Assembly (NCBI RefSeq): GCF_045037415.1
Contig: NZ_CP173438.1
DNA length: 64,000 nucleotides
Source of the DNA: Escherichia coli
GTDB taxonomy: Bacteria; Pseudomonadota; Gammaproteobacteria; Enterobacterales; Enterobacteriaceae
Reading direction: 5' to 3' (one strand)
Shown: positions 26,430 through 35,596 of the stretch, one piece after another
How the letters are laid out: every line of letters starts with the position of its first letter
How positions within the stretch are numbered: position 1 is the stretch's first letter
Program-made: the position numbers and the translations under genes
Notes under the pieces: generated by a model
What the model was told of the DNA's origin: nothing
Seen by the model: the letters and a program-made list of their open reading frames with translations, nothing else
The model's database searches: none

Positions 26430-27200
26430 TTAAATGACTTTGCGAAGATTTTCAGCAAATGCGGCGATCTGTTCTTCGCCGTCGCCTTCAATCACGATGC
26501 GCTGACGCTCGCGCTGTTTCGGCGCGGCAACCTGTTGTTCTGACCAGGCTGCCTCTGCGTTAAAACCGATATCCGCCGCCGACCATACCTGGACTGGCTT
26601 TTTCGCCGCGCCGAGAATGGCTTTCATCGAAGGAATTTGTGGGGAGTTGATATCAGTGGAAACAGCAACAACCGCAGGCAGCGGAATGCTTAAGGTTTCT
26701 GTTTCATCTTCCAGTTCGCGCTCAACGGTGAGGGTATCTGCCGTCAGGGAGATAATTTTGCTGACGCCGTTAACTGCCGGAATATTAAGGATTTCGCCTA
26801 CCAGCAAACCAACCTGCTGGGCATAAAGGTCGGAAGAACCATCGCCACAGAGGATCAAATCAAAGCCTGCTTTCTGAGCGGCTGCAGCAAGTACGCTCGC
26901 CGTTTGTTGCGGCAGTGCCTGCTCGAACTGGTCATCAATCACCACAATCAGTTCATCCGGACCGCGCGATAGCACATCTTTACGCCCTTTGGCGTTGGTC
27001 AGGGCTTTACCGCCCACACTTAAGGCCGTCACCTGCGCCTCTGCTGCCTGTTGCTTTAGCTGGCAAGCCGCTTCAATAGCGTTGAGATCGTATTGGCTTA
27101 TTTTGGCATCGGCTTTGCTGAAGTCTAACGAACCATCAGCATTATTGACCGCAATATCCTGTTCATCAGGCACGCACTTATAGCAAGTAATAATCTTCAT
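26430..27200 (-). CDS. fixA: Electron-transfer flavoprotein beta subunit homologue FixA
   Basis: Internal Met [20 protein letters not shown]... gives the 256-aa FixA; track ORF is 21 codons longer. Confidence 0.93.
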
Positions 27201-27331
27201 TGCATCTCCAGAAATCATGAAGGAAACGTCGTTCATATCGGTGGTGTTAATTACAGATATCACGCCCTTTAATTTGGAAATAAAACTTTAATCACCAATA
27301 TTGAAAATGTCACACGCAGATAAATCCAACT

Positions 27332-27366
27332 TTCAATATTGTTAAGCTCCTCACCAATATTGAAAA
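27332..27366. promoter_or_regulatory. Inverted repeat TTTCAATATTG-N13-CAATATTGAAA, probable CaiF activator site
   Basis: Perfect 11-bp half-sites separated by 13 bp in the divergent cai/fix control region. Confidence 0.6.
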
Positions 27367-27388
27367 CATGGCGTAGCAAAAAGAAATT

Positions 27389-27423
27389 TTCAATATTGTT
27401 TTATGGATCACCAATATTGAAAG
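27389..27423. promoter_or_regulatory. Second inverted repeat TTTCAATATTG-N13-CAATATTGAAA, probable CaiF activator site
   Basis: Identical architecture to the site at 27332-27366; an additional orphan half-site lies at 27297-27307. Confidence 0.6.
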
Positions 27424-27517
27424 TCAGATGCTATTTTTTTACCCACAACAGAACATAACAAACTGATTAATAATCAAAATTAACAAAAAAATGCCCTCTA
27501 TTCACCCGAAACAAAAA

Positions 27518-27533
27518 TGTGACAACAATCACA
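27518..27533. promoter_or_regulatory. CRP binding site in caiT promoter
   Basis: TGTGA-caacaa-TCACA, a perfect match to the CRP half-site consensus, about 140 bp upstream of caiT. Confidence 0.65.
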
Positions 27534-27669
27534 GAATGCAGCTTATTGAATACCCATTATGAGTTAGCCATTAACGCGTCCACGAGGTTAATAATAATTA
27601 TATTAAATGTTAACAAAAATAAAACAAACGGGAACGCAAAATAAATATTCGTTTTCACAGTGGAATTAA

Positions 27670-29187
<1,518 letters not shown>

Positions 29188-34940: not shown

Positions 34941-35336
34941 TTAACGACGCATACTCTTTGACAACATCATCTGCCACTTCTGCTCGCGGTTAAGTTCCGT
35001 GAGCGGAACGGCAGGAATACGCGGCGTCTTTCTTACGCCGACTAATTTATCCCGGCTGTTATTGCGCAGACGCGCGTAAATTTGCTCATCGATATCAACC
35101 ACTTTAACCAGTCGCTGACACTGGCATCCCCGCCCTTCCAGCTTATTAGGGATCATCTTAACTTCGCAGCTTATTTCTGTGACTTCCGACAGAATATAAG
35201 TCAGGGTATTAACCGCCTTGCTGTGTTCAATATCGAAATGAATAGAGATCTCTCTTGCTATCACCCACCGATTTTCAGCCATCATCCATTCGGCGATTAA
35301 CAAGTAGAGTGGTTTTTCAACATATCCTTCACACAT
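34941..35336 (-). CDS. caiF: Transcriptional activator of cai/fix operons
   Basis: Internal Met MCEGYVEKPLYLLIAEWMMAENRWVIAREISIHF... gives the 131-aa CaiF; track ORF is 5'-extended. Confidence 0.9.
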   Translation of the reverse strand: MCEGYVEKPLYLLIAEWMMAENRWVIAREISIHFDIEHSKAVNTLTYILSEVTEISCEVKMIPNKLEGRGCQCQRLVKVVDIDEQIYARLRNNSRDKLVGVRKTPRIPAVPLTELNREQKWQMMLSKSMRR

Positions 35337-35596
35337 ACGAACTCCAGTTTCACAAATTAAAAGACTGGCTATGACTCGTTTTGCAGCAATTAAACAAGGC
35401 CATATTAAAATTGTGGATATATCGATAGTATGCAACTTCACCGTCGATAAGTGTGAGCTAAATCCTGCTTATGTCATCAAAAATATCGATTCCCCAAAAG
35501 ATTTACTTAATGGGCAAAAAAAACGGTCCTCATCAGAGAACCGTATTAGTTATTTGATCAAATTAGCGGATGAAAAATATCCGCCATGACACGCTA

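What the first reader, a model, noticed from the sequence alone, without database searches (positions are those of the whole stretch)
27293..27423. Five copies of a CAATATTG-core motif, forming two perfect 11-bp/13-bp-spacer inverted repeats, in the cai/fix divergent promoter
TTTCAATATTG-N13-CAATATTGAAA occurs twice (27332-27366 and 27389-27423), with an extra half-site at 27297-27307. This matches the architecture reported for CaiF activator binding sites, so it is probably known biology. The strict periodicity, with alternating orientation about every 21-36 bp, is nonetheless striking and should not be mistaken for a CRISPR-like array. A perfect CRP site lies about 100 bp further toward caiT, and an FNR-like half-palindrome ctgattaataatcaa lies near 27462-27478.
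Basis: partly seen in the sequence, partly recalled or inferred. Interest (0 to 1): 0.3.

Follow-up and report, generated by a model that had tools for sequence, protein, structure and literature searches.

The report
Known CaiF activator sites, cai–fix promoter
The repeats are the already published binding sites of the carnitine regulator CaiF between the E. coli caiT and fixA genes, so the finding is ordinary; the one less familiar point is that the fifth, unpaired copy sits inside the fix promoter and is the most widely conserved copy among related bacteria.

Summary
TTTCAATATTG-N13-CAATATTGAAA occurs exactly twice (27331-27365 and 27388-27422). A fifth CAATATTGAAA lies at 27296-27306. All lie in the 472-bp caiT/fixA intergenic region of an E. 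coli chromosome, and caiF is 7 kb away.

The sequence equals, letter for letter, the published CaiF sites F1 and F2 (Buchet et al. 1999, as quoted in PMC12083890 and PMC3680233). The perfect CRP core is confirmed at 27518-27533. The "FNR-like" element has the wrong spacing (N5) and an unconserved right half.

Comparative work added three points:
- In 25 Escherichia/Citrobacter/Salmonella-type species the five half-sites are conserved islands between variable linkers.
- The number of palindromes varies by genus from 0 to 3. One E. coli O127:H6 record has lost F1 through a 59-bp repeat-mediated deletion.
- The unpaired copy (TTCAATATTGGTGA plus an A/T-rich block) is present in 53 of 54 Enterobacterales cai-fix loci. 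It overlaps the fix core promoter.

This suggests, but does not prove, that the unpaired copy is the ancestral primary CaiF operator. The accessible literature does not mention it.

The parts
27331..27365 (.). CaiF site F1: TTTCAATATTG-N13-CAATATTGAAA, the palindrome nearer fixA. Its centre is at 27348, which is -69.5/-70 from the inferred fix start.
   Evidence: Exact match. Identical to the published CaiF site sequence (PMC12083890). Both arms are about 100% conserved in 25 species while the 6 central spacer bases vary.
27388..27422 (.). CaiF site F2: the second exact copy of the same palindrome, 57 bp from F1. Its centre is at 27405, which is -126.5/-127 from the fix start and about -162 from the cai start.
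27292..27306 (.). Fifth, unpaired CaiF-type half-site, TCACCAATATTGAAA. On the fix strand it reads TTTCAATATTGGTGA. It lies inside the fix core promoter.
   Evidence: The 15-mer is identical to the right arms of F1 and F2. No left-arm partner exists: the best match is 6/11 at any spacer from 9 to 17. It lies within the 17-bp spacer of the promoter-like site found. It is conserved in 53 of 54 Enterobacterales cai-fix loci.
27285..27313 (-). fix promoter-like element: GTGACA (27313-27308), a 17-bp spacer, then TAAAGT (27290-27285). The inferred fix mRNA start is near 27278.
   Evidence: Promoter scan. GTGACA is 100% conserved in the Escherichia/Citrobacter/Salmonella group. The start position is deduced from published relative positions recalled from memory and is consistent. 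Alternative -10 candidates lie 5 or 8 nt further downstream.
27340..27355 (.). Weak CRP-like core TGTTA-N6-TCACC nested in the F1 spacer, concentric with F1.
   Evidence: 2 mismatches to TGTGA-N6-TCACA, centre 27347.5. This corresponds to CRP site 2 at -69.5 of fix in my recollection of Buchet 1998.
27397..27412 (.). Weaker CRP-like core TGTTT-N6-TCACC nested in the F2 spacer.
   Evidence: 3 mismatches, centre 27404.5, which is -126.5 from 27278.
27518..27533 (.). Perfect CRP core TGTGACAACAATCACA, centred 41.5 bp upstream of the inferred cai start (about 27567).
   Evidence: The only 0-mismatch match in the window. Both halves are conserved in 25 species. caiT and fixA are listed as CRP targets served by separate CRP molecules (PMC3105977).
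27555..27560 (+). cai -10-like hexamer CATTAT inside the fully conserved block TGAATACCCATTATGAGTTA.
   Evidence: Sequence and conservation. Its position fits a start near 27567, which also reproduces the FNR positions -90.5 and -41.5 quoted in PMC3680233.
27463..27477 (.). It is not a canonical FNR site.
   Evidence: It gives 1 mismatch only with the non-canonical 5-bp spacer, and 3 mismatches in the N4 register. TGATT is conserved in relatives but the right half is not.
26430..27200 (-). fixA coding sequence (electron transfer flavoprotein subunit).
   Evidence: Pfam ETF, E 1e-37. Annotated as fixA in E. coli genomes. The start codon is visible.
27673..29187 (+). caiT coding sequence (carnitine/gamma-butyrobetaine antiporter).
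   Evidence: ORF. Pfam BCCT, E 3e-119. Annotation.
34941..35336 (-). caiF, 131 aa, the activator that recognises the repeats.
   Evidence: The translation contains MCEGYVEKPLY...SMRR. Pfam CaiF_GrlA 28.3 bits against a cutoff of 25. Its only relative in the PDB is GrlA, 4KT5.

Best explanation
This is the shared control region of the divergent E. coli operons caiTABCDE and fixABCX.

Shown by published work: the two perfect palindromes are the published operators F1 and F2 of CaiF. CaiF is a small helix-turn-helix activator of the CaiF/GrlA family. It is made anaerobically and is switched on by a carnitine-derived CoA ester. CRP is also required for induction.

Read from the sequence: the 13-bp spacer of each palindrome holds a weak CRP-like core concentric with it. 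A separate perfect CRP site sits at -41.5 of the cai promoter.

Inferred: CaiF at F1/F2 and CRP together switch on both promoters when carnitine is present and oxygen and glucose are absent.

Also inferred: the fifth copy is a single CaiF-type site inside the fix core promoter. It lies in the -35/-10 spacer if the mapped start is used, or over the -35 position under the alternative -10 assignments. I infer that one CaiF molecule binds there and helps RNA polymerase directly at fix. F1 and F2 would then be upstream enhancer-like copies that arose by duplication of a 57-59-bp unit. I put about 0.6 on the fifth copy being a working CaiF site.
For: - Exact sequence identity with the published F1/F2 consensus.
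- Correct genomic context, with caiF nearby.
- The region lies between the two divergent transcription starts, so it acts as DNA rather than RNA. No Rfam family matches.
- Phylogenetic footprint: all five half-sites, the CRP1 halves and the two -10 regions are about 100% conserved in 25 species, while the linkers between them vary.
- Within E. coli, all 5,388 matches to the 138 bp holding the five sites are at least 95% identical. The neighbouring 138 bp falls to 90-95% in 3,148 of 4,600 matches and fails to match in about 800 genomes.
- For the fifth copy, its 15-mer is identical to the F1/F2 right arms.
- It lies inside the promoter-like GTGACA-17-TAAAGT on the fix strand.
- TTCAATATTGGTGA is the most informative block in an alignment of 20 genera. 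It is present in 53 of 54 loci whatever the number of palindromes, which ranges from 0 to 3.
- Edwardsiella has only this single copy, and Edwardsiella tarda EIB202 is reported to carry caiF (PMC2764856).
- Proteus CaiF is only 51% identical to the E. coli protein (PMC2131755), yet Proteus has seven half-sites of the same sequence.
- The homologue GrlA is reported to activate LEE1 P1 from within the promoter spacer at a target that lacks dyad symmetry (PMC4730234).
Against: - No binding experiment on the fifth copy is accessible to me. The primary papers (Buchet 1998, 1999) could not be read, so I cannot say whether their footprints covered it.
- The fix start position (27278) rests on my recollection of the 1998 abstract. 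It is internally consistent with the sequence, but only the cai side is corroborated by an accessible paper.
- Across genera the best conserved -10-like hexamer lies 5-8 nt downstream of the E. coli TAAAGT. The exact position of the site relative to -35 and -10 is therefore uncertain.
- Conservation of the fifth copy could partly reflect its role as core promoter sequence.
- One genus, Entomohabitans, has lost its core.
Confidence: 0.9

Rival explanations
1. The fifth copy is not a CaiF site. It is conserved only because it is fix core promoter DNA, or it is the inert remnant of a truncated third palindrome unit.
For: - The whole block 27260-27316 is conserved in close relatives, not just the motif.
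- Its spacing to F1 (35 bp between half-site starts) equals the inter-unit spacing in Proteus, as expected for the leftover arm of a repeat array.
- The literature as quoted names only two sites.
Against: - Across 20 genera the motif itself is more conserved than the -35 position or any -10 candidate.
- It persists in genera that have no palindrome from which it could be a remnant.
- An inert remnant would not stay identical to the working arms across several families of Enterobacterales.
Confidence: 0.25
2. The repeats act as RNA hairpins (attenuator or terminator) or as a cruciform rather than as protein-binding sites.
For: They are perfect 11-bp inverted repeats. The repeat finder also reports a longer imperfect 43-nt inverted pair spanning F1 and F2.
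Against: - They lie upstream of both inferred transcription starts (27278 leftward, 27567 rightward), so they are not transcribed.
- Only the arms are conserved, and the unpaired copy has no partner.
- No Rfam match approaches any family threshold.
- The published data are protein footprints.
Confidence: 0.02
3. The array is a CRISPR-like or mobile-element repeat (REP/MITE-type) unrelated to carnitine regulation.
For: Regular spacing, and copy-number change by recombination between repeats.
Against: - The repeat units are 11-16 bp in alternating orientation within 130 bp.
- In the 54 Enterobacterales loci, all picked by caiT homology and not by the motif, the motif lies in the region between caiT and fixA.
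- There are no further copies in the 64-kb window beyond chance.
Confidence: 0.01
4. The palindromes are primarily CRP (or FNR/ArcA) sites, and the CAATATTG arms are incidental flanks.
For: CRP-like cores are concentric with F1 and F2. CRP is required for induction (PMC2131755). caiT and fixA are CRP targets.
Against: - The CRP-like cores are weak (2-3 mismatches), and their left halves degrade further in other genera (TGCCA, TGCTA), while the CAATATTG arms stay exact.
- The central 6 bases vary.
- The literature as quoted assigns the arms to CaiF.
Confidence: 0.03

Closest known systems
CaiF operator sites F1 and F2 of the E. coli cai-fix regulatory region (Buchet, Nasser, Eichler & Mandrand-Berthelot 1999, Mol Microbiol 34:562)
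   Same: Identical sequence (TTTCAATATTG-N13-CAATATTGAAA), the same number of sites (two), the same locus and the same regulator gene nearby. K-12 MG1655 carries the same five half-sites.
   Different: Nothing differs for F1/F2. The fifth unpaired copy is not part of the two-site description as quoted in accessible papers.
GrlA activation of the LEE1 (ler) P1 promoter in EHEC/EPEC (Islam et al. 2011, as summarised in PMC4730234)
   Same: GrlA is the characterised homologue of CaiF (Pfam CaiF_GrlA; PDB 4KT5; PMC9979310). It is reported to act from within the -35/-10 spacer at a target without dyad symmetry. This resembles the position and unpaired nature of the fifth CaiF-type site in the fix promoter.
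   Different: The LEE1 P1 spacer is 18 bp and activation is thought to compensate for suboptimal spacing. The fix spacer predicted here is 17 bp. No CaiF binding at this position has been shown. GrlA is controlled by GrlR, whereas CaiF is controlled by a CoA-ester co-activator.
CRP-dependent divergent promoters with separate CRP sites (class II at -41.5, upstream sites at -69.5 and beyond)
   Same: A perfect CRP core at -41.5 of cai and weaker cores nearer fix. caiTABCDE-fixABCX is listed among divergent pairs served by different CRP molecules (PMC3105977).
   Different: Here two of the CRP-like cores are nested concentrically inside the operators of a second activator.

Membership tests
CaiF binding sites F1/F2 (E. 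coli cai-fix region) | Sequence TTTCAATATTG-N13-CAATATTGAAA (11-bp perfect inverted repeat, 13-bp spacer) | tested here: met
   Two 0-mismatch matches at 27331-27365 and 27388-27422. The consensus is as quoted in PMC12083890.
CaiF binding sites F1/F2 (E. coli cai-fix region) | Two sites located in the intergenic region between the divergent caiT and fixA genes | tested here: met
   fixA ends at 27200 and caiT starts at 27673. Annotation in E. coli genomes agrees.
CaiF binding sites F1/F2 (E. coli cai-fix region) | Cognate regulator gene caiF present | tested here: met
   A 131-aa CaiF is encoded at 34941-35336 on the minus strand.
CaiF binding sites F1/F2 (E. coli cai-fix region) | Physical protection by purified CaiF (gel shift or DNase I footprint) | not testable with these tools
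   Taken from the literature as quoted. The primary paper is not held.
CaiF binding sites F1/F2 (E. coli cai-fix region) | Conservation of the sites wherever the cai-fix system with CaiF occurs | tested here: inconclusive
   The half-site motif is present in 54 of 54 Enterobacterales loci, but full palindromes number 0, 1, 2 or 3 depending on genus. One E. coli record lacks F1.
Fifth copy as a CaiF operator | Same recognition sequence as proven arms | tested here: met
   The 15-mer TCACCAATATTGAAA is identical to the right arms of F1 and F2.
Fifth copy as a CaiF operator | Bound by CaiF and required for activation | not testable with these tools
   No accessible data. Only comparative conservation is available.
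FNR binding site | TTGAT-N4-ATCAA dyad with a 4-bp spacer | tested here: not met
   27463-27477 fits only with a 5-bp spacer. All N4 registers in the intergenic region have 3 or more mismatches. The right half is not conserved.
CRP binding site (site 1) | TGTGA-N6-TCACA | tested here: met
   0 mismatches at 27518-27533, unique in the window.
CRISPR array | Direct repeats of 23-50 bp in one orientation separated by unique spacers of similar length | tested here: not met
   The units are 11-16 bp, alternate in orientation, number five, and span 130 bp.

The most novel reading that the evidence does not exclude
The unpaired fifth half-site, not F1/F2, is the ancestral and primary CaiF operator. 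A single CaiF molecule bound inside the fix core promoter would activate in the way reported for its homologue GrlA at LEE1 P1, or by substituting for -35 recognition. The palindromes F1/F2 would be lineage-specific upstream amplifications of a 57-59-bp unit, gained or lost by recombination (0 to 3 copies per genus). This would revise the two-site model used in databases and in current CaiF biosensor design.
Probability: 0.35. Interest if true: 0.45.

Novelty: already known. Interest (0 to 1): 0.2.

Why it matters
As handed over, the finding restates a 1999 result and needs no further attention as a discovery. The comparative result has modest practical value. Carnitine biosensors and production strains are built on the fix promoter and on the two-site model of CaiF binding (PMC12083890, PMC3680233). 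If the promoter-embedded single site is the core operator, then promoter engineering, AlphaFold modelling of CaiF as a dimer on one palindrome, and database annotation of the CaiF regulon would all need adjusting. It would also give a second example of spacer or core-promoter activation in the CaiF/GrlA family.

Tried and rejected
- Primary papers. I tried to read Buchet 1998, Buchet 1999 and Alsharif 2015. None is held. Transcription-start positions therefore rest partly on my memory of the 1998 abstract, cross-checked against the sequence and against the FNR positions quoted in PMC3680233.
- Literature searches. One search was swamped because 'fixA' matched 'fixation'. Another was rejected for syntax. 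PMC8085414 yielded no match for CaiF, intergenic or promoter.
- Left-arm partner for the fifth half-site. I tested spacers of 9-17 bp. The best match was 6/11 with no CAATATTG core, so it is truly unpaired.
- RNA explanation. The Rfam scan gave only chance matches far below threshold.
- Counting the 59-bp deletion in E. coli. A junction query failed because BLAST pieces from intact genomes are joined and rank the same. Only an upper bound of 28 genomes with under 80% single-place coverage is available.
- CaiF autoregulation. No CaiF-type site lies near caiF: no exact CAATATTG core lies there and no match to the 15-mer within 3 mismatches.
- Fixing the fix -10 element by cross-genus conservation. 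Three candidate hexamers at offsets 5, 10 and 13 from the motif remain possible.
- Not attempted: CaiF structure prediction (no DNA can be modelled here) and a whole-genome scan for the motif (only the 64-kb window is available).

Full report
**1. The observation**

The window between 27200 and 27673 is the intergenic region of two divergent genes. fixA lies on the minus strand, with its ATG at 27200-27198 (Pfam ETF). caiT lies on the plus strand, with its ATG at 27673 (Pfam BCCT).

CAATATTG occurs eight times in 64 kb. Five copies start at 27296, 27334, 27355, 27391 and 27412. Shuffles give 1.6 copies per window, and a Poisson estimate for five in one 130-bp span is about 1e-12.

The 35-bp pattern TTTCAATATTG-N13-CAATATTGAAA matches exactly at 27331-27365 and 27388-27422. 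It matches nowhere else even with three mismatches allowed. A fifth CAATATTGAAA lies at 27296-27306.

The spacings are 38, 21, 36 and 21 bp.

The three right-hand copies share a longer 15-16-mer, (A)TCACCAATATTGAAA, spaced 59 and 57 bp apart. The left arms and their outer flanks are also repeated at 57 bp. The structure therefore looks like a duplicated 57-59-bp unit.

**2. Identity**

The 601 bases around the finding match 5,394 of 5,426 complete E. coli genomes, always between genes annotated caiT and fixA. K-12 MG1655 carries the same five half-sites. caiF, encoding the 131-aa activator, lies at 34941-35336 on the minus strand.

Two open-access papers summarise the footprinting work of Buchet et al. 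1999:
[quoted passage not shown] 5'-TTTCAATATTG-N13-CAATATTGAAA-3'" (PMC12083890).

This is letter for letter what the window contains.

**3. Other elements of the region**

The perfect CRP core TGTGACAACAATCACA is at 27518-27533 and is the only zero-mismatch match in the window.

Weak CRP-like cores lie concentrically inside the spacers of F1 (27340-27355, two mismatches) and F2 (27397-27412, three mismatches).

From my recollection of the abstract of Buchet et al. 1998, which I could not retrieve, the layout is as follows:
- CRP site 1 is at -41.5 of cai.
- CRP sites 2 and 3 are at -69.5 and -126.5 of fix.
- The two transcription starts are 289 bp apart.

Placing the cai start at 27567 and the fix start at 27278 satisfies all four numbers simultaneously. 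The cai start also reproduces the FNR positions -90.5 and -41.5 quoted in PMC3680233. The hexamer CATTAT at 27555-27560 fits as the cai -10 element.

Its right half is not conserved in relatives. I do not regard it as an FNR site. According to the reviews read, oxygen control acts mainly through caiF expression.

All five repeats lie between the two divergent starts, so they are not transcribed. Rfam gives nothing.

**4. Conservation**

I fetched 80 caiT loci, one per species.

In 25 Escherichia, Citrobacter, Salmonella, Pseudocitrobacter, Phytobacter and Intestinirhabdus species the intergenic region shows a classic phylogenetic footprint. The conserved parts are the five half-sites, GTGACA at 27308-27313, the CRP1 halves and the cai -10 block, all close to 100%. 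The linkers 27317-27328, 27366-27383 and 27423-27515, and the six central bases of each palindrome spacer, vary.

Within E. coli, all 5,388 matches to the 138 bp holding the sites are at least 95% identical. The adjacent 138 bp drops to 90-95% in 3,148 of 4,600 matches and is not matched at all in about 800 genomes.

**5. What the comparison added**

The number of palindromes is not fixed:

| Palindromes | Genera |
|---|---|
| 3 | Proteus (59-bp period, seven half-sites in all) |
| 2 | Escherichia group |
| 1 | Yokenella, Trabulsiella, Atlantibacter, Pluralibacter, Providencia and others |
| 0 | Edwardsiella, Hafnia, a Serratia, Budvicia, Limnobaculum, Leminorella |

One E. coli record, an O127:H6 E2348/69 derivative, has a 59-bp deletion that fuses the fifth copy to the right arm of F1. 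This removes F1 by recombination between the direct repeats.

By contrast the unpaired copy is almost invariant. Read on the fix strand as TTCAATATTGGTGA(Y)-N3-GGT(W)TTATTTT, it is the most informative block in a 20-genus anchored alignment. It is present in 53 of 54 Enterobacterales loci, and only Entomohabitans has lost the core.

Edwardsiella tarda EIB202, from one of the genera with only this site, is reported to carry caiF (PMC2764856). Proteus CaiF is only 51% identical to the E. coli protein (PMC2131755), yet the motif is unchanged in Proteus.

caiT homologues in Shewanella, Campylobacter, Ferrimonas and others have no such motif upstream. In the three I inspected, no divergent fixA start was found upstream of caiT.

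**6. Position of the fifth copy**

A consensus scan finds GTGACA (27313-27308), a 17-bp spacer and TAAAGT (27290-27285) on the fix strand. This fits a start at 27278 and puts the fifth copy entirely inside the -35/-10 spacer.

Across genera, the best conserved -10-like hexamers lie 5 or 8 nt further downstream (TTTTAT/TATTAT, or TATTTT). Under those assignments the motif would fall over the -35 position.

In every reading it overlaps the fix core promoter. It has no left-arm partner: the best match is 6/11.

The palindromes are themselves asymmetric in all genera. Right arms carry TCAC next to the core, and left arms carry YYA. The fifth copy is of the extended right-arm type. Because TCAC persists where no CRP partner half exists, it is more likely part of the CaiF target than a CRP half-site (inference).

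**7. Mechanism**

Shown by others:
- CaiF binds F1 and F2.
- CRP is required for induction.
- H-NS and RpoS repress.
- caiF itself is under CRP and FNR control.
- Crotonobetainyl-CoA is the co-activator.

Inferred here:
- The half-site centres are 24 bp apart with a CRP-like core between them. Two 15-kDa CaiF molecules probably bind as separate monomers flanking CRP rather than as a compact dimer.
- A lone half-site is therefore a plausible target for one CaiF molecule.
- The homologue GrlA (Pfam CaiF_GrlA; PDB 4KT5; PMC9979310) is reported to activate LEE1 P1 from within the promoter spacer at a non-symmetric target, in a MerR-like way (PMC4730234 citing Islam et al. 2011).
- By analogy, I propose that the fifth copy is the promoter-proximal CaiF site for fix, and that F1/F2 are upstream copies serving both promoters.

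I put about 0.6 on the fifth copy being a real CaiF site. I put about 0.35 on the stronger claim that it is the ancestral primary operator. The main rival is that it is conserved merely as promoter DNA or as a repeat remnant.

**8. Verdict**

The interest of the finding as given is low. The only non-textbook points are three:
- the near-universal conservation and promoter-internal position of the fifth half-site;
- the 0-3 copy-number variation of the palindromes between genera;
- a natural-looking 59-bp deletion of F1 in one E. coli lineage.

None of these could be checked against the primary papers, which are not held.

Noticed in passing
L082:2400-2830 (E. coli O127:H6 EPEC1, NZ_LT903847.1); corresponds to window 27292-27365: The caiT-fixA intergenic region is 413 bp instead of 472 bp. 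A 59-bp deletion joins the 16-mer of the fifth copy to the right arm of F1, leaving the single site plus F2 only. It looks like recombination between the direct repeats. Up to 28 E. coli genomes show under 80% single-place coverage of this block and may be similar.
   Followed up: partly
L026-L033, L044 (Proteus), about -505 to -318 relative to caiT: Proteus species carry seven half-sites: the single promoter-type site plus three palindromes with a strict 59-bp period. Genera such as Yokenella and Trabulsiella have one palindrome. Edwardsiella, Hafnia and Limnobaculum have none.
   Followed up: yes
window 27253-27264 (fix strand CGTGATATCTGT, about +15 to +26 of the fix leader): A second block, consensus c.tg.Ta..T.Tatt, is conserved across 20 genera in the fix 5' leader, about 30 nt downstream of the fifth half-site. 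It is often followed by ATTGCCG. Its function is unknown. It could be a leader RNA element or another protein site.
   Followed up: no
L047 (Budvicia aquatica), about -400 to -355 relative to caiT: A tandem direct duplication, with a 27-bp period, of the promoter-type unit TTTCAATATTGGTGAT..AGGTATT. This gives two same-orientation sites instead of a palindrome.
   Followed up: no
window 27464-27471 and the equivalent positions in L001, L008, L014, L025: A short TTGATTTA-like motif about 95-100 bp upstream of the cai start is conserved in several genera although its surroundings vary. It might be a half-site for some regulator; ArcA and FNR sites are listed near here in PMC3680233.
   Followed up: partly
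L043, L048, L049, L021, L042, about -275 to -255 relative to caiT: In the genera without palindromes, the site at the -41.5-type position of the cai promoter reads TTTGATTAAGATCAC(A/G). This matches both the CRP and the FNR consensus at about 9 of 10 positions. The global regulator used there may differ from E. coli.
   Followed up: no
window 34941-35441 and 26430-27263: The mechanical ORFs for caiF (166 aa, GTG start) and fixA (277 aa, GTG start) are longer than the real genes (131 aa and 256 aa). The fixA extension would run through the fix promoter and the fifth half-site, so it is an artefact of ORF calling.
   Followed up: yes
window 34941-35336 (caiF): CaiF scores only 28.3 bits against Pfam CaiF_GrlA (cutoff 25), and only residues 4-61 of the 131-aa protein (39-96 of the 166-aa ORF queried) align. 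The family model barely covers its founding member outside the helix-turn-helix region. One paper (PMC5806209) instead calls CaiF a degenerate AraC-type factor, which the Pfam scan does not support.
   Followed up: partly
E. coli genome collection: Three of the 5,398 matches to the cai-fix control region are on records annotated as plasmids rather than chromosomes.
   Followed up: no
L055-L080 (Campylobacter, Shewanella, Ferrimonas, Desulfovibrio, Malaciobacter): Close caiT homologues (68-74% identity) occur outside Enterobacterales with no CaiF-type motif upstream. In the three inspected (L055, L058, L076) no divergent fixA start was detected upstream of caiT. Their regulation must differ.
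   Followed up: no
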